From Patescibacteria group bacterium (GTDB lineage Bacteria > Patescibacteriota > Gracilibacteria > UBA1369 > PNNO01), in contig JBHPJE010000005.1 of assembly GCA_042568205.1 (NCBI GenBank), positions 3,267-67,266 of the forward strand: a DNA stretch of 64,000 bases, written 5' to 3'. Shown piece after piece: positions 20,469-54,800 of the stretch (positions within the stretch are counted from its first letter, which is position 1; every line of letters begins with the position of its first letter). The translations under genes and the position numbers were made by a program. The notes beneath the pieces are model-generated. The model did no database searches. It was given only the letters and a program-made list of their open reading frames with translations, and was not told where the DNA came from.

Positions 20469-20898
20469 TTATAAAAAAATCCTTGAAATAGGAACTTCTA
20501 TTGGATATAGCGGTCTTTGGTTTGCAAAAGCCCTTCGGGAAACAGGCGGCAAACTTTACACAGTTGAATCAAATAACGAGCGCTATGAAATAGCCCGTGA
20601 AAATTTTAGCGAAGCTGAAGTTTTAGATATTGTGAAGCAATTAAAAGGCCATGCTCCTGATGTTCCGATCCCGGACATGGTTGATTTTCTCTTTCTGGAT
20701 GCCACAAAATTCGAATATAAATATTATTTGTCGACTTATTTATTTCACATGAAAAAAGGTGGCATGATTGTTGCAGACAATGCAATAAGCCATGCTGAAG
20801 ATATGAAAGTTTACATCGACATGGTTAATAATTCAGACCAACTCGAAACCAAATTAGTAGAACTTGGCACGGGTCTTCTTGTTTCCAAGATTAAGTGA
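20344..20898 (+). CDS. Class I SAM-dependent O-methyltransferase (YrrM/CCoAOMT-like)
   Basis: ILEIGTSIGYSG, DFLFLDATK, GGMIVADN. Confidence 0.9.
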   Translation: MKNPLQDVKKRLEKERQNNGNKYWTIDHETGQFLYNLIVKNDYKKILEIGTSIGYSGLWFAKALRETGGKLYTVESNNERYEIARENFSEAEVLDIVKQLKGHAPDVPIPDMVDFLFLDATKFEYKYYLSTYLFHMKKGGMIVADNAISHAEDMKVYIDMVNNSDQLETKLVELGTGLLVSKIK

Positions 20899-20926
20899 AA
20901 GGCCCTGCATCTTGCGATACAGGGCC
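20897..20926 (-). terminator. Hairpin terminator downstream of the tRNA-like RNA
   Basis: Minus strand GGCCCTGTATC-GCAA-GATGCAGGGCC-TTTC. Confidence 0.75.
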
Positions 20927-20975
20927 GGTGAATTCATGGATCGTTGGAACCAAATAGGCCCATTGATCTCGTTTT

Positions 20976-21154
20976 TGGAGGCGGGAGGACTCGAACCCCC
21001 ATACTAAGAGCCGAAATTTTGATGTGCTTACTAAAGTGAGACGGAGGTCCCGATGCCCAAGAAACACATCAACCAGGCACAACAGAAAGGAGGTTGGGAT
21101 GAACAATCCCGTTCGGCTCTATAATAGCGTCCTACCGTGTTAGACGACGCCCCC
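20976..21154 (-). ncRNA. 179-nt tRNA/tmRNA-like RNA with an anti-SD-bearing insert in place of the anticodon loop
   Basis: Acceptor GGGGGCG/CGCCTCC+A (G3:U70); D arm GTCT-AACACGGTA-GGAC; T arm GGGGG-TTCGAGT-CCTCC; insert closed by AGAGCCGAA/TTCGGCTCT; no encoded CCA; no anticodon loop; no Ala-Ala tag frame. Confidence 0.85.
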
Positions 21155-21175
21155 ATATGTAAAAACATAGAGCTT

Positions 21176-21203
21176 ATTATACCTCTATATAGCGGGTTGT
21201 CAA
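21176..21203 (-). promoter_or_regulatory. Consensus sigma70 promoter for the tRNA-like RNA
   Basis: TTGACA (21203-21198)-16-TATAAT (21181-21176), about 20 nt upstream of the mature 5' end. Confidence 0.85.
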
Positions 21204-21204
21204 C

Positions 21205-22035
21205 CTATTTCTTTAAAATCAAATAAAAGGCTGAAGCAAGCCTGTGGGCTTCTTTTCGCTTGCGGAAAAAAGCATCGAAATACTTAATTGGCGCAGTGAA
21301 GTAACTAAAAATTGCACGCCAAAATTTGTATGCTTTTTTTGAATTAAATGAAAATAATATTGCTAAATATTCACGTAAAAACCATGCCAATGCACTTGAT
21401 GGACCAACTGAAATTCCTTCATCCACAATTTCAAAATCTTTAAAAAATTCATGTAGGCCATTAATTGAATATCTTTGATAATCATCAGGAACTGCATGAA
21501 ATGGCTGCATAAAAGGTACTTTCGCATAAATCTTCCCGCCTGGCTTAACTACACGTTTTAATTCTTCACGAACCTTTAGAGGATTTTTTAAATGCTCAAA
21601 TACATTTTTAATAATTACTCCATCGAGGCTGCCATCTTTAAAAGGCATTTCGTGCGCGTCAGCCACAATATCAATATTTGGATAATATGCAATATCGAGA
21701 TTATAAACGCCTTTAATTTTCTTTGATAAAGATCCAACATTTACTACAACATCATCGTCATTGAATTGCTTGAGAAATTCCTTAAGCTCTGGGCCTTCTT
21801 CGTATGAACTGTGGAGATTTTTAAAATAAACAGAGTGGTGTGGTGGCTTAAGAAAGCGTAAAGCGCGTTTTAAAGCATTAGGTTTTTTCTGATGTTGCGA
21901 AACCGCCCCTACTTCCATATCATCAATAAAAACCGGCACACCTTCGTGCTTTATATATTGTTTGCCACATTCAGAACATTTGAGCTCGTTGAGCTCTTTT
22001 CGACATTTCGGACATGCTAAAATATTATGTTTCAT
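21205..22035 (-). CDS. Class I SAM-dependent methyltransferase with N-terminal Trm112-like Zn finger
   Basis: LACPKC...C..C...Y...GVP; VADAHEMPFKDGSLD; VFEHL..P; RVVKPGG; PFH..PDDY.R. Confidence 0.88.
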   Translation of the reverse strand: MKHNILACPKCRKELNELKCSECGKQYIKHEGVPVFIDDMEVGAVSQHQKKPNALKRALRFLKPPHHSVYFKNLHSSYEEGPELKEFLKQFNDDDVVVNVGSLSKKIKGVYNLDIAYYPNIDIVADAHEMPFKDGSLDGVIIKNVFEHLKNPLKVREELKRVVKPGGKIYAKVPFMQPFHAVPDDYQRYSINGLHEFFKDFEIVDEGISVGPSSALAWFLREYLAILFSFNSKKAYKFWRAIFSYFTAPIKYFDAFFRKRKEAHRLASAFYLILKK

Positions 22036-42420: not shown

Positions 42421-42867
42421 TTATTTTCGTTTAAGGGCGCGTGCAATGTCAAGATTTTGATCGCGTTTTTTTAGATCCGCTCGTTTATCATAGAGTTTTT
42501 TTCCTCTTACCAATCCGATTTTTAGTTTGATGAGGCCTGCTTTTGTGTACATTTCTAATGGTACGCAAGTTGTTCCGGTTTCATTTAGTTGTTTTAAAAT
42601 TTTGAGGATTTCTTTTTCGTGAAGAAGAAGTTTTCGTTTTCTTGTTGGATTTGGATTGCTTTTATTGGCGAATTTATATGGAGAAATATGCGCATCGTTA
42701 AGCCAAACTTCATGTTTTGAATCAATATCAACATAACTCCCTTTAAGATTGCAATTTGATGCTTTGCAGGATTTTACCTCAGGTCCAAGCAGCGCAATTC
42801 CAGCCTCGAAAGTGTCGAGAATTTCATAATCGTGGAAAGCCTTTTTATTTTTTGAGAGAGAGGGCAT
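42421..42867 (-). CDS. smpB: SsrA-binding protein
   Basis: NKKAFHDY, EAGIAL.G.EVKS, RKLLLH, GKKLYDKR. Confidence 0.97.
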   Translation of the reverse strand: MPSLSKNKKAFHDYEILDTFEAGIALLGPEVKSCKASNCNLKGSYVDIDSKHEVWLNDAHISPYKFANKSNPNPTRKRKLLLHEKEILKILKQLNETGTTCVPLEMYTKAGLIKLKIGLVRGKKLYDKRADLKKRDQNLDIARALKRK

Positions 42868-43047: not shown

Positions 43048-45735
43048 ATGAGATGTTTTGTTATGGCATTTCTGGTTGGCATCATGATGCTGGCTGGAGC
43101 AACCACGGCGAGAGCGGACCTTCCGCCTGCGCCTGAACAGTGTGCGTCGCAGGGATGCTTCGCAATCCAGGGTCAGACCCATCTCTACCTCGACCGGAAA
43201 GGAGTCGAGAAAGGACCGATCGCCCTGCCCGTCACTGGTGAAAACACCCTCAGGTATTCAAACGGATACCTCGTGGGGACTTGGAATGTCTCCAATGTCA
43301 TGTGGCTATATCACGTCGAAACTGGTACACAGTGCACTCGTGACGTTGGGATAAGCTGCAAAGAGGGAGTGGTGTTTGGAGGGTATGCATTCGCTGCCTG
43401 CCCAAGCAATTCCTCCACCGTGAGGATGGCGCTCGACTGCACCTCGCACGACACGTTCCCTGGTGGAGCCTTCCAGAATCCTGAGACCTTGAGCTTATCT
43501 AGCACCGAAGTGATCTTCGGATCCAACGGGAATAACCGCGTCGGACACTTCGATCCGGTTAACCCGAGCCTGGCCAACGCCTACGGCACCGGCCTGACAA
43601 ACCTCATGTACGTCAGGTACCATGCCGGAACTTCGAAGGTGTACTTCAACGGTAACGATGGTCTCCCCGGGATCTTCTTCAAGGACTATCCCCTGACCGG
43701 AGTGTTCACTTCGCAGAACCTGCTCTACCTACCAGTCAACACACGGTTCCTGTCCATCAACGATACACACCTCTTCGCCTCCTCGTATATCTCGGAAGCC
43801 TACCTGGTGGACATCGTGAACCAGACCTACATCACGCTCGCCATGAGCGAGTCGCGTGCGAACGCACTGTCTTCTGACACCGCGTATGTCGTGGATGTGG
43901 GCATCGATATCGTGACCCGTGCCTACGACCTGCAAGGTAACGAGAAAAGTTACTCACCCTTGCCGGTGGCTGGCTACTCCATCGCTTACATTGAGCCCCA
44001 TGTGGCACCGGTGTGCAACAACGGGCTCATCGAGCCTGGCGAGATCTGCGATGGTAGTGACTTTGACGGCGCAACTTGCGCCGACCATGGTTTCGATGGC
44101 GGCGAGCTCGGGTGCAACCTGAGCTGCGACGCGATCAGCACCATCAACTGCTACGGCTGTGGCGACGGCGTGTTGAATGCCAGCGAAGCCTGCGATGGTA
44201 GCGACCTCGGACCCGAAACCTGCGTGGACTACGGTTACGCAAGCGGCGACCTGAGCTGCAACTCAAGCTGCGAGCACGACACCTCCGACTGCTACACCTG
44301 TGGCGACGGATTCATCGAAGGCGCCGAACAGTGCGAGTCCAACGATCTCAACGGCGGCTCATGCACTTCCGAGGGATTCGTCGCTGGCACAATTGCCTGC
44401 GGCACCGACTGCATGTACGACACGTCCAACTGCACTTCCTGCGGTGATGACGTGATCAATGGCAGTGACATCTGCGACGGCAACGCCATCAACGACGTCT
44501 GCCAGACTCTGGGCATGGGCTTCACCGACGGCACACTCGCGTGCAACAGCACTTGCGACGACTACAACACTTCCGGCTGCACCACGTGCGGTGACGGAAA
44601 TGTAGATCCCGGCGAAGAGTGCGACGGCAACGACCTCGACCAGGAGAACTGCCCGGGCCTCGGATTCACCGGCGGCAACCTCAACTGCTACGCCAACTGC
44701 ACGTACGACACGTCTCAGTGCAACGGCGCACCGATCGAGATCTGTGGCAACAACGTCATCGATCCCGGCGAAGAGTGCGACGACGGCGACCGCCTGAACG
44801 GCGACGGGTGCGACGAAAACTGCATGAACGAACCCGATCCCGTCCTCTGTGGCAACAACATCATCGAAGGCATCGAGGAGTGTGACGGTACCGAACTGGG
44901 TGGCGTCAGCTGCGAAAGCCTGGGCTACAACACTGGCGTGGTGTACTGCGAGAACAACTGCAGACTCAACGTCAACTGCAGCTTCAACAACTTCCAGCCC
45001 GCCAGTCTCAACGTCGAACCTGGTGCGCAACCGCCCCCCGGAGCCTTCACTCCGGAGCAGACGGAAACCTTCGAAGAGATCACCGATGGTCTCACCGAGT
45101 CCTGCATCCCGTCCATGGATGGCAGCGACCTGATCATGACCACGCCCGAAGACGGCTACTGCCCGATCGAGCTGAACTTCGGAGGCATTGAGCCTTCCCT
45201 GAAGTCCAAGCAGGGCAAGGTCTTCATCATGATCTACAAACCTACCAACTCGCTCAACAACGAGAACGCTGTCGTTCGCATCAAGCCGAGCGGCGAGTTC
45301 AACATCGAGAGCGGTGGACATATGAGAGCTCAGCTCTGGGTGACGCCGACCATCACGTTCGACAACAACGCCCTGACTGAGACCACCGAAGCAAGCATGA
45401 GCCTTCGCATGGAACTCCTGTCGGTCCACCCGGATCCGCCGGAGGACACCGATCCGAATGGCCGCTTCCTTCTCGTCGAGATTGCCACGGGCCTGGGCAC
45501 ATACTGCTCCAGTTCCGGCACCTGCGCTATCGTCCCGAGTGGCGGTGTGCATGTGCTCGATCTCGACAACCTCGACGACTCCCTGGGGGACATCGGCCGT
45601 ACCCCCAAGAAGTCCAGTGGCTGCTCCATCGCGGGAAGCAGCTCCAACAACTCAGAAATTCCCGCGTTCATCATGGTGATCATGCTGATCCTGGCCATTC
45701 GCATTCGACGGCAGAAGAAAGCCGCGAATCGATAG
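43048..45735 (+). CDS. GC-rich surface protein, paralog of 9034..11610 (propeller-like head, Cys-rich repeats, MYXO-CTERM-like anchor)
   Basis: Signal peptide ending ARA; CG(D/N)G...E.CDG.DL repeats; CDDGD..NGDGC; C-terminal SSGCS-TM-RIRRQKK. Confidence 0.88.
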   Translation: MRCFVMAFLVGIMMLAGATTARADLPPAPEQCASQGCFAIQGQTHLYLDRKGVEKGPIALPVTGENTLRYSNGYLVGTWNVSNVMWLYHVETGTQCTRDVGISCKEGVVFGGYAFAACPSNSSTVRMALDCTSHDTFPGGAFQNPETLSLSSTEVIFGSNGNNRVGHFDPVNPSLANAYGTGLTNLMYVRYHAGTSKVYFNGNDGLPGIFFKDYPLTGVFTSQNLLYLPVNTRFLSINDTHLFASSYISEAYLVDIVNQTYITLAMSESRANALSSDTAYVVDVGIDIVTRAYDLQGNEKSYSPLPVAGYSIAYIEPHVAPVCNNGLIEPGEICDGSDFDGATCADHGFDGGELGCNLSCDAISTINCYGCGDGVLNASEACDGSDLGPETCVDYGYASGDLSCNSSCEHDTSDCYTCGDGFIEGAEQCESNDLNGGSCTSEGFVAGTIACGTDCMYDTSNCTSCGDDVINGSDICDGNAINDVCQTLGMGFTDGTLACNSTCDDYNTSGCTTCGDGNVDPGEECDGNDLDQENCPGLGFTGGNLNCYANCTYDTSQCNGAPIEICGNNVIDPGEECDDGDRLNGDGCDENCMNEPDPVLCGNNIIEGIEECDGTELGGVSCESLGYNTGVVYCENNCRLNVNCSFNNFQPASLNVEPGAQPPPGAFTPEQTETFEEITDGLTESCIPSMDGSDLIMTTPEDGYCPIELNFGGIEPSLKSKQGKVFIMIYKPTNSLNNENAVVRIKPSGEFNIESGGHMRAQLWVTPTITFDNNALTETTEASMSLRMELLSVHPDPPEDTDPNGRFLLVEIATGLGTYCSSSGTCAIVPSGGVHVLDLDNLDDSLGDIGRTPKKSSGCSIAGSSSNNSEIPAFIMVIMLILAIRIRRQKKAANR

Positions 45736-45896: not shown

Positions 45897-48800
45897 ATGG
45901 GGAATTCAAAAAACTGGCTCGTAGCTCGAGCTAGGAATAAACAGCTTATCGAAAAGGCCAAAAAAGTTGCTGCAGGAGGGCTTATCTCTGCAGTTATTAT
46001 TGGGCCTCTTATTTATTTTGGAGCAGTTGCTGTTCCTGTTGAACTTCGAAATGCTAAAAAAACGAGTGACGAGCTTGTTCAAGATATGGCTGCTACCCCA
46101 GAAATCGCTATTGATATACCTGCTACCCCAGAGGTAAAAACCAGCGAAAAACCAATCGAATTCCCTGAAAAAAAGGAGAAAAAAGAAATAAAAGATCCGA
46201 AAGTTGAATTCTTATTAGCTGATCTTCCTGTAGTAAAACAACAAAAAGAAGATGTTGCTACAGGTTATTCAGAAACGGTTGAAGATCGATTTATTAATAC
46301 ATTAAAAACAGAATTTAGAGACGAAGAAAAAGAAGTTGAAATCAGGACTACAAAAAAAGAAATAGAAGGACAAGTAGAAACGTTGGTAGTAATGCAAAAT
46401 CTTGATATTGAAGATGGGCCAAGGAAAGTGCAAAAGAAAGAAGATGCCGATATTGTAGCAAGAGCTACACTTAGAAGATATCTACAAACAAATCCAAAAG
46501 AAGCTGATTTTGACATTTACAAAGATACAAGCAAATTAAAAAATTCTAAAAAACAATATCAACTTGTTGTTGACAGTATAAAAACTAACAATGACAAATG
46601 GTATATAAATTTCCAACAATACAAAGAAGCACTTCCTGTATTTGATGGAAATGTAAAAATGATATTTACAGAAAGAAAACAATTAATAGCTTTAACTGAC
46701 AATCTAAGAACTGAATTACCGGAAACAACAGAATTCCAAATTTCAAACATTTCTGCAACAGAATCAACTAAAGAAATTTTTGATTGGGATGAACAAGAAG
46801 ACAAAATTGATTTTGTAAACAAAGGTTACTACAAAAATAAACCAGCTTTTAAAGTAGATGTTGAAAGCCATAATCCATTAGGGGATTATGAAGTTTTTGT
46901 TAATGCTATTGATGGAGAGATTGAAAATATTGGAGGAGATATAAGGCTCGCAGATGAAACAGGCTTTACAAGAGAAGAACTTCAACCAAATGGTGTTCTT
47001 CCTTATAATCCTGTCACTGATATAGTTGACCCTATTCAGTATGCAGTTGGGGAACGGCGTCCAGAGGATGAAACACAGGTTTTCCCAACTCCTGAAGAAC
47101 TTGAATTAATACAACAGGCTAATGATGTAGAAGCTGCGAGAGCAGAAGCAGAGATGAATGGCAATATTGAAATTCAGAGAAGTGAAATTTTTGAAAAAAT
47201 AATAGCTCCTGTTTATGCAGAAGAAGTAATTGAAATTCCTACTCAGGAAGTAACTGGCCCATCAATCGAAGTGTTGGAAGAATTCGCAGCTACGAGTGAT
47301 GTCTCAGCTACTCCAGATGCCTCAGCAACTCCTGAGCCTAGCATTGTGGTTCTTGATACTATATTTAGCAGAGTGCTTGGTAAAGTTTATCCTCAAAATC
47401 CAAATCAAGAACCAATAATTACACCTCTTGCTGATGCTTATGTTTATTATAATTCGCAACAATTCACAACCGATGAAGATGGATATTTTGAAAATAAAGA
47501 TGGAGACTGGTATAGCGTTTTCTTGGATGGTCCATATGTAACTGTCTACGATGACGACGCAAGTTCAAATGCAAACATCAAAGACCGGACACCTGAAGAT
47601 CCTTTTATATGGGATGAAAACAGTGCGAGCCTTGCTGCTACAAATGCTTTCTATCACGCAAATGAACTTCATGATTATTTTGTTGAACTTCACGATTATG
47701 ATGTAAATAAAAAAATCCCAATAACTGTTAATTCTGAATTAGTTGATCAATATCTAAATGGATGTGGTGCATGGTTTGACAATTCAGACAAATCAGTTGA
47801 GATGGGTAGAGGTGGTACAGATGCCTGTCCTGAAGATTTAAATTATGCACTTTCAAGTGACTTCATATATCACGAATATACTCACTTTATTGTTGAAGAA
47901 ATCACCCACCTTCCAAATATTGCAGGTTCAGAAGCTGCAGCAATGGGTGAAGGTCTGGCAGATTATTTTGCAGCTTCAAAAAATAACGACTCTATTTGGG
48001 GAGATGTTGTTGCACCTAATAGTACTAGAAATTTAAAAAACACTTTACAATATGGAGTTGATATGACTGGGGAGTCTCATCAAGATGGCCAAATTTTTGC
48101 TGGTGCTTTATGGGATTTAAGAACTCTGATCGGACCAATTAATACAGATAAATTAGTCTTCAATACTTTATATCAAGACAGACTACATTTCGAAACATTT
48201 ATGTATGGACTGCTAATTGAAGATGATGATAATAATGATTTTTCAGATGGAACTCCTCATATGTTGGAAATTATTGCAGCATTTGAAAACCATGGCATTG
48301 GACCAGGAATTTTAAACTTCGAAGGGCTTCCAGTTGATCCTGAAGCATGGACAGATTTAGTTGGAGAAGAAGCCCCAGTTGGAGAAGAAGCAGGTGTATT
48401 AAATGCTTTATATAATACTAGTGGTACTACGTGTGGCAGTTATGATAATGGAACGACTATCTGGATTGATGCGAATGTTAAGTGTTATTGGGTTGGATCA
48501 GGAACGCGATCATTAATTTATTTATCAAATGGTGCTGATTTATATATAGGGGGAAATCCTGCTGAAACTGAGGCTGTGCTAAAAGCAAGTGGAACTCTTA
48601 CAACTACCGGAGATGTTAGTGTTTATGGTACTAGTGCTTATTCAACTATACAGATTGGTTGGTATGGTACTTATTATGGTCGACTAACAGTAGGAGATGA
48701 ATTACAGCTAATAAATGGTGGTGAAGTAGATGTTGGATACGATGGAGGATCTGCCGCAAATGTAAATACTTATCTTCACGTTACTGGTAGTACACAGATA

Positions 48801-51800
48801 TATAAAACTGCTGCAACGTATACTTCAAACTGTCACGTTGACATTTGGAATGATGCATCAAGCGATAATAACTTTGGAGATTTATTTGTAGGGAGATCAG
48901 ATACATCAAGTTCACAATATGGTAACCAATCTTATGTATATGTAAATGGTAGTAATCCTGGAAGAGTGAATATGGACTCTTTTAGATTAGACAATGGTGG
49001 TTATGTAAATACTTATGGATATTTTACTTCAAACGGGGCTTCAGACATCCTAAATGGGGCGTGGATGAGGGTCCATGATTCGGCCGGTTACTTTTACAAT
49101 AATGGATACGCTCTTTATGTTTGGGACGATTCTTATTTTTACAATGATGATTATGTCCATTCTGGTATAATTTGGGATTTAAGAGATACTGCAAGGATAA
49201 TAACAAGTAGCACTGGCTCAACTAATGGACAATCCGCTACCTTCGGGAATAGTTCATGGCTAGATTTAAATGGTGGATCTTTTAATTTGGTCGGAACAGC
49301 AACATTTAATACTTCAGCATATGCTGATCTCGACGGGGGAACATTTAATCCTGGAACTGCAACCTTTAATAATTCAACCTATGTTGATGTAAATGGATCA
49401 GCATACTTTAGTCCAGGAACAGCCAATTTTAATACAAGTGCGGAAATGCGACATAGAGCAGTTGGAACTGCTTCAGATGGTAATGTGACAATGAATAATA
49501 ATTCCCTTTGGTACCATTATGGCGGGACATCAAGCATTGGGAATTTCAACATGAATGATACTTCAATAATGTATGCGCATGGTGGCACTATTACAGCAAC
49601 CTCTTTCTATCTTAGTGATAGTTCGCGACTTGATAAAACGTACTATGATGCTACCCATACAGGTAATGGCGCAATAACTGCAACTAACATTACTCTTACA
49701 GAGACATCCCGTGTTACTCATGCAAGAACAACAGGTGCAGTTACTGTAAGTGGCAAGCTCATGATTACTAATGATGCATATTATACTCAAAGTGCAGGTA
49801 CAGTGAATGTCACTGGAGCCGCAGGGACTGAAGTTTTAGGAACAACTTATACATCGCAAAGTGGAATGTTGCAAGTAGGTGGAGGGAATTTCAATTCAAC
49901 GGATATTACGTGTTATGAAAACGGATGGATAGACCAAAACGGCGGAACAATAACTACTTCTGGCACACTAGATATACAAAGTAATGCTTGTTTATATGAT
50001 AATGATATTGGAACTGGGACTTTCAATTCTATCAATATGACAAATAATAGTGAGATTCAAAACGATGGAACAATAAATGTGAAAGCTGGTGGAGTTTATA
50101 TGGAAGACACTTCATTACTAACTAATAATTATAATACAAGTGGATCTGCATACATTTATATGAATGAACCCACTGTAGGACATAATAGTTTTTGGACTGT
50201 TAGAGAAAGTGCGGATGTTGAAAATAGAACTGGAGGATATATAACAGCCCAAACCGGTGCAACATCTGGAGATCATTTAGCTGTCTACGATACTGCGACT
50301 TTTACAAATAGAGGTGACGTTATTTTCCATGATGGATTTATTGGTTTGGATGGTGGTGGAGACGCTGATCAACTGGGAGGTACTTTTGTTAATGAATATA
50401 TAAATGGTCCTGGATATGTAGATTTCTATGGAGACTTACAAATTACTCAGGGCGCTTTTGTAAATAAATCTGATAGACCTGCTTCGTATGGAGCATATAT
50501 TCGAGGAAATGTTGATATTACAGGATATTATTCATCTTTTTGCGATATCTCTGTATTGCAAAATCAGGGACATATGCGAGTATTAGGAGATGTGACAATG
50601 GGAACACATACTGATAGTCCAAGTTATAGTTGTTCAAGGGTACATACTTTAGACACTGCATCATTAACAGATAATGAGCTTTATGTAGATGGAAGCTTAA
50701 CAGCTACAGAAGATTATTCAGAGATTTATGGGACTGGTGGTCTGAATGTTAGAGAAACACTTAGTATGACTGCCCTAAATTCATATATTGACATTCAATC
50801 AGCAACTCAATTTGAAACAACAGTAATTGATTATTATTTCAAAACTGCAAATTTTTATGTGGGAGATACGCTAAACATCGGTGGTTATCTTGTAAAACTT
50901 GTTGCGCAAACCGACTTAGGTGGTGGTACTGGAACAATAACTATTGAGCATTATCCTACTTATACTTTTGCACACAACGCTACAATTACAGGTAATTATG
51001 CAGGCTCTGCAAATATAAATGAACCAACTGGAGTTACTTATGGTGGTTTTTCTTTTAATAGTGGCCACCTTTATGTAGGAGATGATTTAATTATAAATGG
51101 AACTGGTGGTAGTGCTCCATACATGGAAAATGAAGGGACTGTAGCTATTGGAGGCGCCGGCTCAATTACTACCAGTTTACAATTAAATGGAAATTCAACA
51201 ATATTAAACAAAGAAGATCAATTACTCACGGCTGCTTATAGTAGTCAGTCAGGTAATTTTACCCTTGGAGAAACGGTCACAGGTGTAACAAGTGGCATTA
51301 CTGCTGCTGTTGCCTGGGATTATGATAATGGTTCTGATGGACTACTGCTATTAGATGATCCTACAGGCGATTTCCTTGCAGGAGAATTTATAAGCGGTTC
51401 AGTTAGTGGCTATGCAAAGCTTTCTCTTGCTCCTGTTCAGTCATACTCTGATGCAGTTATTACTGTTGACACTGCTTGGCCAACTGTTGCTACTCATGGC
51501 CAATTTCAAATTTATAACAACGCTGCAGTAACAAATAACGGAACAATCAATGCAAATCGCATTCTTGTAGGAAATGGATCAACAGTTGGAGGAGCATGGA
51601 CAAATGCTACCAAAGGGGATACTAATGTTACATACTCAGGTACTGGTACAGCGATGTATTGTTATAGAGCTGCTTGTGCACATAATAGCGATGCAACAGA
51701 TTTAACTATTGCCGGAAATTTATCTATTCAGGGTGTTTCACTTGATCCTATGAATTTTTACAGTGATCAAACTGCAAGCGCTGTAGGTGTAACTATATAT

Positions 51801-54800
51801 AATTATGGAAATTTACATGTTGATAATGAATCAACTTTTACCTCTACTGGAACTAACTATATATATGATGACTTTACAGCTACCCCTGCAAATGATGGCT
51901 TTTTGACAATTTATGTAGACTCAACATTCGATGCAGCTACAGCAAATATGAATTTAGGTCAAAGTGGTCTTTTAACTGGTGGAAAAATTTCCAATAGTGG
52001 ATTATTTAAAATAAATAATTTATATATGAATGAATCTTCTGAGTTAAATAATTATATTAATGGAGCAGTGTATTCATATAACTTAATAGAATTAACCCAG
52101 GATTACAGTACAAACGACTACATTCGCCAATTTAATAATTACGGCTATGTTGACGCAGTGGATGTTCATGTTTATGGAGACAATGCTTGGATAGATAATG
52201 AAAACGCTGCAAATGCAGCCTTTATAGCAAGCGGTGATTTAGTAATCGATGGTGGGGAATTTACAAATATAGATGGGAATCTGGGAGTGGATATTAGTGG
52301 TGATACCTATGTATTTCATGAGGGTTCAGCTACCTACACTGATGGAGAATTGTTAAATTATGATGATTTTACTACAGGGAAACTTTATGTTGGATGTTCA
52401 ACCATAGCTGCTACATGTGCTTATACTGGCGCTGGAGGGTATGTTAAAAATGGTCTTTTTAATACAGACGAAGGAACGATTACGGTTACCAGTACCTCTG
52501 GAATAGAAGACATGTACATATATAGAGGAGGTGATTCTCCGGCAACTACAGGTCTGGTTTATAATGACTGGGGAACGCTTTCTGTTGGGGACGCCACAGG
52601 AGGACAAATGGTGTTACAAGGTGATAATACCTTTGCTGCGCCTGGTGTTTATGATGAGGCAATCTTGCAAAATTCAAGCATCACTCCAACTCCTCAGGTC
52701 AATGCAAATGAAATTTATTTGTTGAGCGCTGCGGAAGTTCATAATGCCGGTGATTTAAATATAAGTGATAAATTGTGGACTGAAAACACTCTAATATTTA
52801 AAAACATTTATAATTATGGGCCGGGTGATATTGATATAACGGGTGATGGTAATTTATGGCTTTATCAAAATAGTTATCTGGAAAATTATAGTGGTGGAGA
52901 TATTGATACAACTGGAACCTTGAAAATATTTGCAGATACATTAACATCAACAGTTGATAATCATGGTCATATGGAGGTAGCTGAAATTTGGAATGGAGAT
53001 GAAGCAGAATATTATGGTGGAACGTTTAATAATGAAAGTGGTGCAGATTTTTCTGCAACAAGTACTGTCAATGATGCAGGAAATATTTTTGGTGGAGATA
53101 TTTATCAAAAAAATGGTTCAAATACATTTGATATTGCAGGAAGATTAACAACTTATAGTGACAGCTCTACTAATAAAGGTAATGTATTTCAGGCTGCAGG
53201 CAGTGGGAAAATTTCTCTTGGGGAATTATATATTGATGAAGATGGATATTATGAAGTTAATGGTTTAACAACTGATCCTGGAACACATATAGTCGACACT
53301 ACAACCACAGGGAATTTAAAATTAAGTGGATTTTTTGGTGATCCGGCAACTCTACAAATTAATGGATCTCAGGTAGAGGTTGATGGTACAACTGGAGTAC
53401 ATCAAGTTTCTAATATCGACAATGATGCCATAATGGCAAGTGGCGATGGTGGATTTATTGCTCATGGACTTGCCACTGTTTATGATCTTGGATCGATTAC
53501 TTCTGATGAAACCTCAACCTTTATGTTTAATGATGGTTTAACTGTCGATGATGGCTTGGCCTCAATTTGGGACAATATGCAAGTTACAGGAGATTTCAAT
53601 ATTATTAATGATGGTCAGGCCCAATTAGGATATGACGGTGTTATTTTAGACAACGTAGGTGTTGTAGTAGTTACAGGCAACATTGCTTTAGACAATACCG
53701 GAATAACAAACAATCTTTTAACAAATTATAGTCAAGTATTAGTTGGTCTCTCTGTTCATATTGGTGGTGCATCCGGCAATACTGCAACTTTAGATCATAT
53801 AGGTTTCAGTGATGGTGTGCTTGCTTCAAATTTATTAGTTTCAGACAACATGGATGTGTACACAACAGGAACGCTTACAAGTGATGGCTATATAGCAATT
53901 CTCGATAATATGCTTGTTGATCCTGGTGGTACTGCTGATCTTAATGATGATGCTTCAGATACATTCTGCGAAACATATGTAGGATTTGATGGCACAGGCG
54001 ATTTGACTATAAACCAGGATGCAACCAATATTGGAAAATTAACAGTAAATTGTACTCGAACCTCTGGAGCTATTACAGAATTATTAGTTTTTGGAACATC
54101 TAGGGTATATGGTGAATTAGAATTAAATTCAGCAATGGGAACAATAGATATGGTAGTAGGTGAATCTGGTACTTCTTACCCAACATTGGGTCTTGTAACG
54201 CATAGATTCTTGACGTATATAACTGGAGACAACGCTCCAACAATCGTCTTTTTATTAGGAATAGTTAATGATCTGACGGTAAATATTGAAGGTGAAATTA
54301 ATGTAAGTGAATTAGTAAATGAAGAAAGCAGCGGAAGTGGTAGGCCTCGAGGTGGTACATTTGGCGGGAAAGGAACTTATAGTTCAGGTGTTACCGGCGT
54401 AGTTGAACATGGTCTTGTCGAAGTTAATTCACAAAACTATGGACGTGCCGGCGTTGATCCTGAACGTGACTTAGCTTATGGTGGTGGAAAAATTGAAATT
54501 GATATATTCGGTAGAGCAACTGTAAATGGAAACATTCTAGCTAATGGAATGGATGGTGATGCAAACACAACTCCTCCAGGAAGTCCAGGAACTCCAGGTG
54601 ATGCAGCAGGTAGTGGAGGAAGCATTATTTTAAATATTGCAGAAAGTTTAAGTGGTAGCGGTGACATCAGTGCGAATGGAGGAGACTCTCCTGATACAAG
54701 TGCAGCAGGAACTCCATTGGCTGAATCTGGTGGTGGTGGACGAGTTTACATCGAATACTATGATAATTCTGGTTACTCAGGCACAGCGAGTGCTTATGGT

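What the first reader, a model, noticed from the sequence alone, without database searches (positions are those of the whole stretch)
20976..21154. tRNA-like RNA whose anticodon arm is replaced by an anti-Shine-Dalgarno / anti-RBS domain
Seen: a consensus promoter drives a 179-nt RNA with acceptor, D and T arms, a G3:U70 pair and an A discriminator. In place of the anticodon loop is a roughly 95-nt insert closed by a 9-bp stem. The insert folds as hairpin GGGAU/AUCCC, then an apparently unpaired ACCUCCUUUCU (21094->21084), then a pseudoknot (GUGCCU/GGGCAU and UUGAUGUGUUU/AAGCACAUCAA) holding a small hairpin with loop CUCC. CAU-N4-ACCUCC occurs twice (21101->21089 and 21055->21043), each the complement of an SD plus AUG. 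Established: ACCUCCUUUCU is the typical 16S rRNA 3' tail, G3:U70 is the AlaRS determinant of tRNA-Ala and tmRNA, and canonical tmRNA is about twice this length with a tag frame. No Ala-Ala-ending tag is visible, although one frame ends in tandem UAG-UAA. Inference: an adaptor RNA that recognises SD-led mRNAs, either to supply the anti-SD in trans, to silence them, or to select them for export. I do not recognise this RNA family.
Basis: partly seen in the sequence, partly recalled or inferred. Interest (0 to 1): 0.95.

Follow-up and report, generated by a model that had tools for sequence, protein, structure and literature searches.

The report
Orphan tRNA-shaped RNA carrying anti-SD
A one-of-a-kind small RNA gene in a small-genome bacterium folds like the top half of a tRNA, but where the anticodon should be it carries a 96-base module showing the same 11 bases as the tail of the cell's own 16S ribosomal RNA; its function is unproven and no relative was found.

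Summary
The described sequence is real. On the minus strand, 21154->20976, a perfect TTGACA-16-TATAAT promoter and a hairpin terminator frame a 179-nt RNA. It has a 7-bp acceptor stem (G3:U70, A73), a D arm and a canonical T arm. A 14-bp arm carries a 96-nt insert.

It fits no known family:
- Rfam gives only a sub-threshold tmRNA match to the tRNA-like part (17.6 bits; cut-off 47).
- ARAGORN finds nothing by default.
- The genome has a canonical 414-nt tmRNA, SmpB, and a 16S rRNA that keeps its own anti-SD tail.

ACCUCCUUUCU occurs twice in the 1.16-Mb assembly: at the 16S tail and here. CAU-N4-ACCUCC occurs 15 times, two of them in this RNA.

No homologue was found in any search: 205 order, 150 class and 400 phylum genomes, phage records, or viral, genome and metagenome contigs. 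Same-genus genomes keep both flanking genes but not the RNA. Conservation, covariation and expression are therefore untested.

Best reading (about 0.35): a tRNA-scaffolded small RNA that pairs with SD-plus-AUG initiation regions, as streptococcal csRNAs do. This genome itself almost never uses SD. Supplying the anti-SD in trans is not supported.

Side finding: a conserved ~70-nt family of G3:U70 tRNA-like RNAs in this order.

The parts
21176..21203 (-). sigma-70-type promoter: TTGACA (21203->21198), 16-nt spacer, TATAAT (21181->21176). It lies 21 nt upstream of the RNA's first G and starts 1 nt after the stop codon of the upstream methyltransferase gene.
   Evidence: 12 of 12 matches. There are 24 such perfect promoters in the assembly against 2.7 expected, and most precede gene starts.
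20976..21154 (-). the 179-nt tRNA-shaped RNA, defined as the acceptor stem plus discriminator A; the true ends are not measured
21148..21154 (-). acceptor stem, 5' strand GGGGGCG (G3 of the G3:U70 pair)
   Evidence: aligned to the tmRNA model's acceptor
21130..21145 (-). D arm: 4-bp stem GUCU/GGAC and 9-nt loop with G18 G19; preceded by U8 C9
21112..21126 (-). 5' strand of the long arm that replaces the anticodon stem (UAUUA, bulged U, AGAGCCGAA)
21096..21110 (-). hairpin GGGAU-UGUUC-AUCCC; its 3' strand holds the first CAU
21084..21094 (-). ACCUCCUUUCU, identical to the last 11 nt before the 3' end of this genome's 16S rRNA; mostly single-stranded in the predicted ensemble
21043..21055 (-). 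second CAU-N4-ACCUCC module (CAUCGGGACCUCC); CUCC is the loop of a 5-bp hairpin (21051->21038)
21019..21072 (-). 11-bp helix UUGAUGUGUUU/AAGCACAUCAA (21072->21062 with 21029->21019), enclosing the second module. The proposed pseudoknot partner GUGCCU lies at 21080->21075.
   Evidence: The pseudoknot itself is not supported by any search.
21002..21015 (-). 3' strand of the long arm (UUCGGCUCU, UAGUA)
20984..21000 (-). T arm GGGGG-UUCGAGU-CCUCC. It is preceded by a single U (21001) that could stand in for position 48.
20976..20983 (-). acceptor 3' strand CGCCUCC (U70) and discriminator A. It is followed by AAAAC, so no CCA is encoded.
20933..20968 (-). trailer element, 84% identical over 37 nt to the leader that precedes a tRNA-His gene at the syntenic site of a same-genus genome (G001)
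20901..20926 (-). terminator-like hairpin (11 pairs, 7 G-C) followed by UUUCACUU. It abuts the stop codon of the convergent O-methyltransferase gene.

Best explanation
This is a transcribed, strain-specific, non-decoding small RNA built on a tRNA scaffold.

The tRNA-like top half (acceptor, D and T arms, with the usual tertiary-pair positions intact) most likely gives the transcript a compact, nuclease-resistant fold and a defined 5' end through RNase P.

The 96-nt module grafted onto a 14-bp arm, where the anticodon stem-loop would be, is the working part. It exposes a pyrimidine strand identical to the 16S anti-Shine-Dalgarno tail. It also carries two copies of an anti-AUG plus anti-SD unit (CAU-N4-ACCUCC).

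The RNA would act by base-pairing with purine-rich SD-plus-start-codon regions of mRNAs and keeping ribosomes off them. Streptococcal csRNAs are proposed to work this way.

Shown: the gene anatomy, the expression signals, the motif statistics and the exclusion of known families.

Inferred: transcription, processing, any alanylation, the pairing and the targets.
For: Expression signals:
- Perfect promoter and terminator in the right places. Promoters of this exact form are real in this genome: 24 found against 2.7 expected, mostly in front of genes.

tRNA-like part:
- The Rfam tmRNA model recognises it at E = 3.4e-5 locally and 2.1e-5 genome-wide.
- The fold is better than 200 of 200 shuffles.
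- RNase P RNA is present in the genome.

Motifs:
- The 11-mer is shared only with the 16S tail: 2 occurrences, 0.45 expected.
- 2 of the genome's 15 CAT-N4-ACCTCC motifs lie in these 179 nt.
- U64-U74 is predicted unpaired.

Precedent:
- csRNAs carry anti-SD and anti-AUG (CAU in 53 of 61) in an unpaired region. I saw passages of PMC3091779.

Background:
- The genome also holds a conserved family of non-decoding G3:U70 tRNA-like RNAs, so tRNA scaffolds put to other uses are plausible here.
Against: - No homologue was found anywhere I searched, so there is no covariation and no test of motif invariance.
- Four same-genus genomes lack it. Three of them keep both flanking genes.
- This genome barely uses SD: GGAGG in -18..-4 of 5 of 769 long ORFs against 5 of 769 in a control window, and 4-mer SD cores in 34 against 68.
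- A genome-wide duplex scan with positions 54-80 gave no outstanding target at a gene start. The best hits lay inside ORFs.
- In both modules the CAU and spacer are in predicted stems, and A61-C63 are partly paired.
- The two modules could be one old internal duplication, which would halve the statistical weight.
- The same letters read on the plus strand give two SD-plus-ATG mini-ORFs.
Confidence: 0.35

Rival explanations
1. Neutral or decaying element. A tRNA-like gene, perhaps with a long arm like the ~70-nt family found here, acquired an expansion or insertion in its loop. The anti-SD look is then a by-product with no selected function.
For: - It is a singleton, absent from all relatives searched.
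- It sits in an intergenic spot that differs in every same-genus genome: about 60 nt, 0 nt, 380 nt with a small ORF, and 1.3 kb with a tRNA-His.
- A second locus of this genus (G000:C40) holds tRNA-like genes whose anticodon arms and downstream hairpins carry inserts of varying size.
- No CCA is encoded, whereas 24 of 27 ARAGORN tRNA calls end in CCA.
Against: - The promoter is perfect, the acceptor, D, T and 14-bp arm helices have no mismatches, and the tertiary-pair positions are intact. That is not the look of decay.
- Two CAT-N4-ACCTCC motifs in 179 nt against about 0.001 expected.
- An 11-mer shared only with the 16S tail.
Confidence: 0.2
2. A decoy of the 16S rRNA 3' end (hairpin followed by the anti-SD tail). 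It would titrate a protein that normally acts on that tail, such as a maturation or toxin RNase or a ribosome-assembly or tail-binding factor.
For: - The hairpin-then-CCUCCUUUCU layout resembles the 16S end.
- The only other non-rRNA copy of CCUCCUUUCU in the assembly also follows a GGGGAUG/CAUCCC hairpin. It lies between two CCA-less tRNA genes on C40, and no ATG lies at SD distance on its other strand.
- In an SD-poor genome the tail may have a role other than SD pairing.
Against: - Only the 10-11 nt are shared with 16S; the flanks differ.
- No candidate partner protein lies beside the gene. The neighbours are methyltransferases and a PBP that are syntenic without the RNA.
- The 10-mer count genome-wide (3, against about 1.4 expected by my arithmetic's composition) is not itself enriched.
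- That RNases and assembly factors recognise this tail is recalled, not tested here.
Confidence: 0.12
3. A second, minimal tmRNA-like rescue RNA. It would be charged with alanine, enter stalled ribosomes, and have the frame GCC...UAG UAA translated as a 15-residue tag.
For: - tRNA-like domain with G3:U70 and A73, then a long helix, a hairpin and a single strand, then an open frame AWLMCFLGIGTSVSL followed by two stops.
- SmpB is encoded in the same window, and a CCA-adding-enzyme family gene is present.
Against: - 17.6 bits against the cut-off of 47, and only the tRNA-like part aligns.
- ARAGORN tmRNA mode finds nothing even at a lowered threshold.
- The tag does not end like this genome's real tag...PALAVA.
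- There is a full D stem, no pseudoknot before the resume codon, and no encoded CCA.
- A canonical 414-nt tmRNA exists.
- One open frame of this length among three is unremarkable by my estimate.
Confidence: 0.08
4. The plus strand is the functional one: two small proteins of 23 and 14 residues, each with a strong SD and ATG. The tRNA-like RNA would then be their antisense partner or a coincidence.
For: AAGGAGGT-N4-ATG and GGAGGT-N4-ATG on the plus strand open frames of 14 and 23 codons. Such SD-led starts are very rare in this genome.
Against: - No plus-strand promoter lies upstream apart from 9-of-12 matches inside the neighbouring gene.
- No gene follows on that strand.
- The peptides are too short to search.
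- The minus-strand tRNA-like fold, promoter and terminator would all have to be coincidental.
Confidence: 0.05
5. An intron-containing tRNA that is spliced to a normal tRNA.
For: ARAGORN, only when forced to 80-90% of its threshold, proposes tRNA-Arg(UCG) with a 105-nt intron.
Against: - That model has 2 mismatches in a 5-bp anticodon stem and cuts through the 9-bp helix.
- A normal tRNA-Arg(UCG) already exists.
- No group I or II intron family matches.
- Removing the insert at the base of the long arm leaves no anticodon loop (sequence).
- The Rfam tRNA model does not report it at E <= 0.1.
Confidence: 0.03

Closest known systems
tmRNA (SsrA; Rfam RF00023)
   Same: Acceptor stem with G3:U70 and discriminator A, a canonical T arm, and a long helix leaving the tRNA-like domain where the anticodon arm would be. 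Its own promoter and terminator. It is the only Rfam family that responds.
   Different: It is less than half the length of this genome's tmRNA (179 against 414 nt) and has a true 4-bp D stem. There is no recognisable tag frame or pseudoknot series and no encoded CCA. The score is 17.6 bits against a cut-off of 47. The genome has its own canonical tmRNA.
csRNAs of streptococci (CiaR-dependent small RNAs)
   Same: An unpaired stretch complementary to both the SD and the AUG start codon, flanked by stem-loops, and proposed to block translation initiation (passages of PMC3091779).
   Different: csRNAs have no tRNA-like domain, are 87-151 nt by my recall, belong to a multi-copy conserved family under CiaR control, and live in SD-using Firmicutes. 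No Rfam csRNA-type match was found here.
Engineered 'tRNA scaffold' for recombinant RNA expression
   Same: The anticodon stem-loop of a tRNA is replaced by a cargo RNA closed by a helix. The tRNA body provides folding, processing and stability. Here a 14-bp arm closes a 96-nt cargo.
   Different: That is a laboratory design. I saw only the search listing and the start of the abstract of PMC3401473; the details are recalled. No natural bacterial small RNA of this build is known to me.
The ~70-nt G3:U70 tRNA-like family found here (model R2)
   Same: Alanine-type acceptor stem (G3:U70 in 32 of 32), discriminator A, canonical T arm, no variable loop, and a long arm in place of the 5-bp anticodon stem. 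It is present in the same genome.
   Different: That family is about 70 nt with a reduced D arm, an encoded CCA and a conserved UUGNCA loop, and it is conserved across the order. R2 does not match the 179-nt RNA at E <= 0.001 when the window is searched.
Intron-bearing bacterial tRNAs (group I introns in the anticodon loop)
   Same: A large insertion at the anticodon end of a tRNA body.
   Different: There is no intron-family match, the insert is only about 96-105 nt, and no anticodon stem-loop can be rebuilt.

Membership tests
tmRNA (RF00023) | Score at or above the curated Rfam gathering threshold over the whole model | tested here: not met
   17.6 bits against 47. Only the acceptor and T arm align, and 132 nt are skipped.
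tmRNA (RF00023) | tRNA-like domain with G3:U70, discriminator A and a T arm | tested here: met
tmRNA (RF00023) | Tag reading frame with a resume codon after pseudoknot 1, ending in a protease-recognition tail and a stop | tested here: not met
   ARAGORN tmRNA mode found nothing. The only candidate frame gives AWLMCFLGIGTSVSL**, against ...RPALAVA* for the genome's real tmRNA. A plain hairpin, not a pseudoknot, precedes it.
tmRNA (RF00023) | Alanylation by AlaRS and binding of SmpB | not testable with these tools
   SmpB is present in the window. AlaRS was not found in the 88%-complete assembly. CCA is not encoded. A CCA-adding enzyme family gene is present. No RNase Z was found above cut-off.
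tRNA (RF00005) | Cloverleaf with a 5-bp anticodon stem and 7-nt loop; detected by the tRNA model or ARAGORN | tested here: not met
   It is not among the 27 matches at E <= 0.1 in the genome and is not called by ARAGORN at default settings.
Intron-containing tRNA | Excision of the insert restores an anticodon stem-loop; the insert belongs to a self-splicing intron family | tested here: not met
   The forced ARAGORN model has a poor stem. No group I or II intron match at gathering or E <= 10.
csRNA-type anti-initiation-region small RNA (functional class) | Anti-SD and anti-AUG in an unpaired stretch between stem-loops | tested here: inconclusive
   The motifs are present twice. The anti-SD is mostly unpaired, but the CAU and spacer lie in predicted stems. 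Only thermodynamic prediction is available.
csRNA-type anti-initiation-region small RNA (functional class) | Identifiable mRNA targets whose initiation regions pair with it | tested here: not met
   The genome-wide duplex scan gave no outstanding target at a gene start. Only 5 of 769 long ORFs have GGAGG upstream.
~70-nt G3:U70 tRNA-like family of this order (model R2) | Match to the covariance model | tested here: not met
   No match in the window at E <= 0.001.

The most novel reading that the evidence does not exclude
In a bacterium whose own mRNAs have dispensed with Shine-Dalgarno sequences, a tRNA-shaped RNA mimics two initiation elements at once: the 16S anti-SD tail and the initiator anticodon (CAU). 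It would capture SD-led messages, which here would be mostly foreign (phage, mobile-element or host-cell mRNAs). It would then block them or, through its tRNA-like and possibly alanine-charged end, hand them to the ribosome or a nuclease. This would be an RNA-only discriminator of self from non-self mRNA at the level of translation initiation.
Probability: 0.06. Interest if true: 0.9.

Novelty: new variant of a known kind. Interest (0 to 1): 0.55.

Why it matters
If it is functional, this would be the first natural bacterial small RNA I know of that uses a complete tRNA body as the carrier for a regulatory or decoy module. It would combine a tmRNA-type alanine acceptor end with a csRNA-type anti-SD/anti-AUG element. 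It also sits in an organism that almost never uses SD, which raises the question of what the retained anti-SD tail, and a mimic of it, are for.

The conserved ~70-nt G3:U70 tRNA-like family and the insert-bearing tRNA-like genes on another contig point the same way. Small-genome bacteria of this order may use tRNA-like RNAs for non-decoding jobs more widely than annotation pipelines show.

Against that, it is a single gene in one metagenome-assembled genome with no expression data, so it may be an evolutionary accident.

Tried and rejected
**Known families**
- Rfam at gathering level on the whole window found only tRNA-Trp.
- Rfam at E <= 10 on 20850-21300 gave three hits. One was the sub-threshold tmRNA match. 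The other two were chance-level: CRISPR-DR57 inside the methyltransferase gene and CC0196 on the terminator.
- ARAGORN default and tmRNA modes found nothing. The forced intron mode gave an unconvincing tRNA-Arg.

**Homologue searches, all negative**
- BLAST in 60 relatives: only a 21-nt match.
- Model R1, built from the single sequence, in 150 order genomes: the three hits are ordinary 72-82-nt tRNAs (Ala, Gln, Leu).
- Model R1 in 150 class genomes: the four hits are tRNAs.
- BLAST in 400 phylum genomes: only T-arm matches of 20-36 nt.
- D-arm pattern with up to 3 mismatches in 40 relatives: one chance match, with no tRNA there.
- Phage records: no match.
- Four viral-contig pattern scans. The first gave 35 loci, which on my reading of the 35 printed sequences are reverse-strand ribosome-binding sites next to ordinary tRNAs. 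The other three gave 0.
- Order-wide pattern ACCTCCTT-N65-105-T-arm in all 205 genomes: G000 plus two unrelated places.

**A badly chosen pattern**
- My one scan each of genome contigs and metagenome contigs used an acceptor-plus-T-arm pattern. It returned 79 and 85 stretches, of which 159 loci were read.
- These are ordinary tmRNAs in which GGGGGCGU occurs inside the pseudoknot region, plus a few tandem tRNAs.
- 8 of the 10 loci checked with Rfam were full tmRNAs; 2 gave no gathering-level hit.
- R1 scored all 159 loci at no more than 43.8 bits, against 229.6 for self.
That is a real gap.

**Expression**
- The look-up of sequencing runs: none was listed and no RNA holder was listed.

**Targets**
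- The duplex scan of the whole assembly with positions 54-80 (36-nt windows, 12-nt steps) gave no convincing target.
- A 13-nt identity at window 46784-46796 lies inside a 3498-aa ORF.
- A 13-of-15 match of module 2 to the initiation region of a gene on C27 was set aside. C27 is a 3.98-kb, 58.5%-GC contig, probably not part of this 35%-GC genome.

**Origin**
- The RNA is single-copy in the assembly.
- Local alignment to the genome's own tmRNA shows only the T-arm and acceptor likeness.

**Literature**
- Searches were.
- I read passages only of PMC11915505 (tmRNA database), PMC3091779 (csRNAs) and PMC7609411 (non-canonical tRNAs).
- None of the passages describes a tRNA body with an anti-SD insert, or the ~70-nt family.
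- Supplements are closed. The tmRNA database's supplementary lists could hold odd short forms that I could not see.
- I claim only 'not found in these searches', not 'not in print'.

Full report
**What is there**

I wrote the structure out and checked it: 51 pairs, none non-standard. In RNA positions:
- A 7-bp acceptor stem (GGGGGCG/CGCCUCC) with G3:U70, followed by A.
- U8 and C9, then a 4-bp D stem with a 9-nt loop holding GG.
- A T arm GGGGG-UUCGAGU-CCUCC.
- Between the D and T arms, a continuous arm of 5 bp, one bulged U and 9 bp, which closes a 96-nt insert.

Only one nucleotide (U) separates this arm from the T stem. The positions that make the tRNA elbow and core (U8, A14, G18 G19, U54 U55 C56, A58, G53-C61, A15 with that single U) are all of the usual kind. 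That is my reading of the sequence.

The insert holds, in order:
- a GGGAU/AUCCC hairpin;
- the stretch AACCUCCUUUCUGUU;
- an 11-bp helix enclosing a small hairpin whose loop is CUCC.

The minimum-energy fold is -64.1 kcal/mol, z = -2.76, and none of 200 shuffles folds as well.

**Expression signals**

- A 12-of-12 TTGACA-16-TATAAT promoter ends 21 nt before the first G. A G+C-rich hairpin with a partial U tract follows 50 nt after the last base.
- Perfect promoters of this form occur 24 times in the assembly against 2.7 expected, and nearly all stand in front of genes. The signal is meaningful in this organism.
- No RNA data could be obtained: no sequencing run was listed.

**Not a known family**

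- Rfam at its curated thresholds finds only a tRNA-Trp in the window.
- With permissive thresholds, the only relevant match is tmRNA at 17.6 bits against a cut-off of 47. It aligns the acceptor and T arm only and skips 132 nt.
- ARAGORN finds neither a tRNA nor a tmRNA.
- Forced to 80-90% of its threshold, ARAGORN offers a tRNA-Arg(UCG) with a 105-nt intron. That model's anticodon stem has two mismatches, and it cuts through the 9-bp helix. A normal tRNA-Arg(UCG) exists elsewhere.
- The Rfam tRNA model does not report the locus at E <= 0.1.

The genome has a canonical tmRNA of 414 nt (110 bits; tag ANDVSEDEGYFAQYGLRPALAVA) on another contig, and SmpB in this very window at 42430-42855. The feature is therefore not the cell's ssrA.

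One frame, GCC...UAG UAA, reads AWLMCFLGIGTSVSL followed by two stops. Nothing else about it resembles a tag.

- The genome's own 16S rRNA ends in GGAUCACCUCCUUUCU. The anti-SD is retained, so 'supplying it in trans' has no basis.
- 24 of 27 ARAGORN tRNA calls, and the tmRNA, end in an encoded CCA. The feature is followed by AAAAC.
- RNase P RNA and a CCA-adding-enzyme family gene are present.
- No RNase Z reaches its cut-off, and AlaRS was not found in this 88%-complete assembly.
- Whether the RNA is trimmed, CCA-tailed and alanylated is therefore open.

**No relatives**

- I found no homologue by BLAST in 60 relatives or 400 genomes of the phylum.
- A covariance model of the single sequence found none in 150 genomes of the order or 150 of the class. 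All its hits are ordinary tRNAs.
- A motif-plus-T-arm pattern in all 205 genomes of the order found none.
- A D-arm pattern in 40 relatives found none.
- Phage records and four viral-contig scans found none.

My single scans of the genome and metagenome collections were wasted on a pattern that also matches the inside of ordinary tmRNAs. Those collections remain effectively unsearched.

Both flanking genes are kept in three same-genus genomes and one same-family genome. They are a Methyltransf_11 protein upstream and a family-3 O-methyltransferase convergent downstream. The spacer between them differs in each:
- 306 nt here;
- about 60 nt in G002;
- none in G005;
- 380 nt with a small ORF in G004;
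- 1.3 kb with a tRNA-His in G001.

A 37-nt piece of the trailer here (20933-20968) resembles the leader of that tRNA-His. The RNA is thus a strain-specific occupant of a variable spot, and no covariation test is possible.

**Are the motifs more than chance?**

- ACCTCCTTTCT occurs twice in 1.16 Mb (0.45 expected): at the 16S tail and here.
- CAT-N4-ACCTCC occurs 15 times in 2.3 Mb of strand sequence, and two of the 15 are in this RNA, 46 nt apart. About 0.001 would be expected in 179 nt.
- The two copies share CAUC...ACCUCC and little else. They could be one old duplication.
- In the predicted ensemble U64-U74 is unpaired (0.69-0.99). A61-C63 pair weakly, and the CAUs and spacers sit in stems.
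- The proposed pseudoknot is not used in the nested fold and cannot be tested without relatives.

**An unexpected context: the genome hardly uses SD**

- GGAGG lies in -18..-4 of the first ATG in 5 of 769 ORFs of 150 aa or more. The count is the same in a control window.
- Four-letter SD cores are rarer upstream of starts (34) than in the control window (68). Start assignment was crude (first ATG).
- The leaders after the 24 perfect promoters are A+T-rich and, on my reading, SD-less in 23 of 24.
- A duplex scan of the assembly with positions 54-80 found no convincing target.

**Interpretation**

The anatomy argues for a real, folded, transcribed RNA. It has clean helices, intact tRNA core positions, a consensus promoter and a terminator.

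The best-supported mechanism, at about 0.35, is a tRNA-scaffolded small RNA whose insert pairs with SD-plus-AUG initiation regions. The nearest functional precedent is the csRNAs of streptococci. Their unpaired centre carries anti-SD and anti-AUG, with CAU in 53 of 61 (passages of PMC3091779). The nearest structural precedents are tmRNA and the laboratory tRNA scaffold (recalled; listing only).

Rivals:
- a neutral expansion in a tRNA-like gene (0.20);
- a decoy of the 16S 3' end for a protein (0.12);
- a minimal second tmRNA (0.08);
- plus-strand mini-ORFs of 23 and 14 residues (0.05);
- a spliced tRNA (0.03).

**Side findings that colour the reading**

1. *A conserved ~70-nt tRNA-like family.*
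   - The tmRNA model also lit up two ~70-nt elements, G000:C12:2606-2675 and C39:2696-2766. ARAGORN ignores them, and the tRNA model scores one at 22.9 bits, below its cut-off.
   - A model built from the two (R2) matches 64 of 151 genomes of the order at E <= 0.001. By my count 53 matches have E < 1e-6, up to 5 per genome; the weak ones may be tRNAs.
   - In a phylum-wide sample, R2 matches only 1 of 150 genomes other than G000, at E <= 1e-6.
   - In 32 aligned members G3:U70 is invariant, 12 of 17 pairs show compensatory changes, CCA is encoded in most, the D arm is reduced, there is no variable loop, and a long arm ends in a UUGNCA loop.
   - The family is not in Rfam.
   - One copy lies between murA-like and murJ genes, and the genome has a FemAB-family gene. 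A role as a non-ribosomal alanine donor is a lead, nothing more. Context is not conserved in the other 29 loci.

2. *A third copy of the 10-mer.*
   - The only other non-rRNA copy of CCTCCTTTCT in the assembly (C40:32744) follows a CAUCCC/GGGGAUG hairpin, between two CCA-less tRNA genes with unusual anticodon arms.
   - The syntenic tRNA-like gene in three same-genus genomes has a different anticodon-arm insert in each, and the motif is not kept there.

Together these show that tRNA-like genes with remodelled anticodon arms recur in this lineage. That fits both a functional and an expansion-prone reading.

**Verdict**

The mechanistic interpretation is plausible but untested, and one version of it (anti-SD in trans) is contradicted. 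Because it is a singleton without expression data, I score it as interesting but not established.

Noticed in passing
G000:C12:2606-2675 (+) = L003:1501-1570, and G000:C39:2696-2766 (+) = L004:1501-1571; outside the window: A conserved family of ~70-nt tRNA-like RNAs. G3:U70 is invariant (32 of 32). Members have discriminator A with CCA encoded in most, a reduced D arm, no variable loop, and a roughly 10-bp arm ending in a UUGNCA loop. 12 of 17 pairs show compensatory changes. It matches 64 of 151 order genomes at E <= 0.001, and only 1 of 150 genomes other than G000 in a phylum-wide sample at E <= 1e-6. It is not in Rfam and not called by ARAGORN. One copy lies between murA-like and murJ genes, and a FemAB-family gene is in the genome.
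   Followed up: partly
whole assembly G000: The genome barely uses Shine-Dalgarno sequences although its 16S keeps the anti-SD. GGAGG lies in -18..-4 of 5 of 769 long ORFs, the same as a control window, and 4-mer SD cores number 34 against 68 in the control.
   Followed up: partly
24 sites across G000, including window 21176-21203: Perfect TTGACA-N16-18-TATAAT promoters are about 9-fold over expectation. Many are followed 3-6 nt after the -10 hexamer by a pyrimidine motif (such as ATCC, CTCCTT or TTCCT) and then by A+T-rich, SD-less leaders of about 20-35 nt (the motif is my reading of the 24 printed sequences).
   Followed up: no
G000:C40:32300-33060 (-) = L273:1000-1760: A promoter and a conserved hairpin leader are followed by an 86-nt tRNA with a 16-nt insertion in the anticodon loop. 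Then comes a spacer with a CAUCCC/GGGGAUG hairpin followed by CCUCCUUUCU, the third copy of that 10-mer in the genome. A tRNA with anticodon AGG follows. Neither tRNA has an encoded CCA. Last is a roughly 300-nt G+C-rich stretch closed by GCCAGGUCAG/CUGACCUGGC, with no Rfam match. In same-genus genomes the tRNA-like gene has a different insert, and the closing helix encloses a short hairpin (G002) or another long insert (G001).
   Followed up: partly
window 20899-21204 and syntenic loci L013-L016: The spacer between the two conserved methyltransferase genes is a variable spot: 306 nt here, about 60 nt in G002, none in G005, 380 nt with a small ORF in G004, and 1.3 kb with an opposite-strand ORF and a tRNA-His in G001. 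Window 20933-20968 is 84% identical over 37 nt to the leader before that tRNA-His.
   Followed up: partly
window 21053-21124 (+) and 21099-21143 (+): The reverse complement of the RNA carries two overlapping mini-ORFs, of 23 and 14 residues, each behind a strong SD at 4-nt spacing. This is very unusual for this genome.
   Followed up: partly
G000:C27 (3,980 bp): This contig has 58.5% G+C in a 35% G+C assembly and is probably mis-binned. Its SD-led gene for a 392-aa protein has an initiation region matching 13 of 15 letters of the complement of the RNA's second module. I treated this as chance.
   Followed up: partly
window 43048-45735 (+) and 45897-56393 (+): An 895-aa ORF with no Pfam match is one of the few SD-led genes of the genome. 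It directly precedes a 3498-aa ORF. SmpB lies just upstream on the other strand at 42421-42867.
   Followed up: no
G000, whole assembly: Only 26 tRNAs pass the Rfam threshold, with none for Val or Glu, and AlaRS was not found. This is probably incompleteness (88%, 42 contigs) rather than biology.
   Followed up: no
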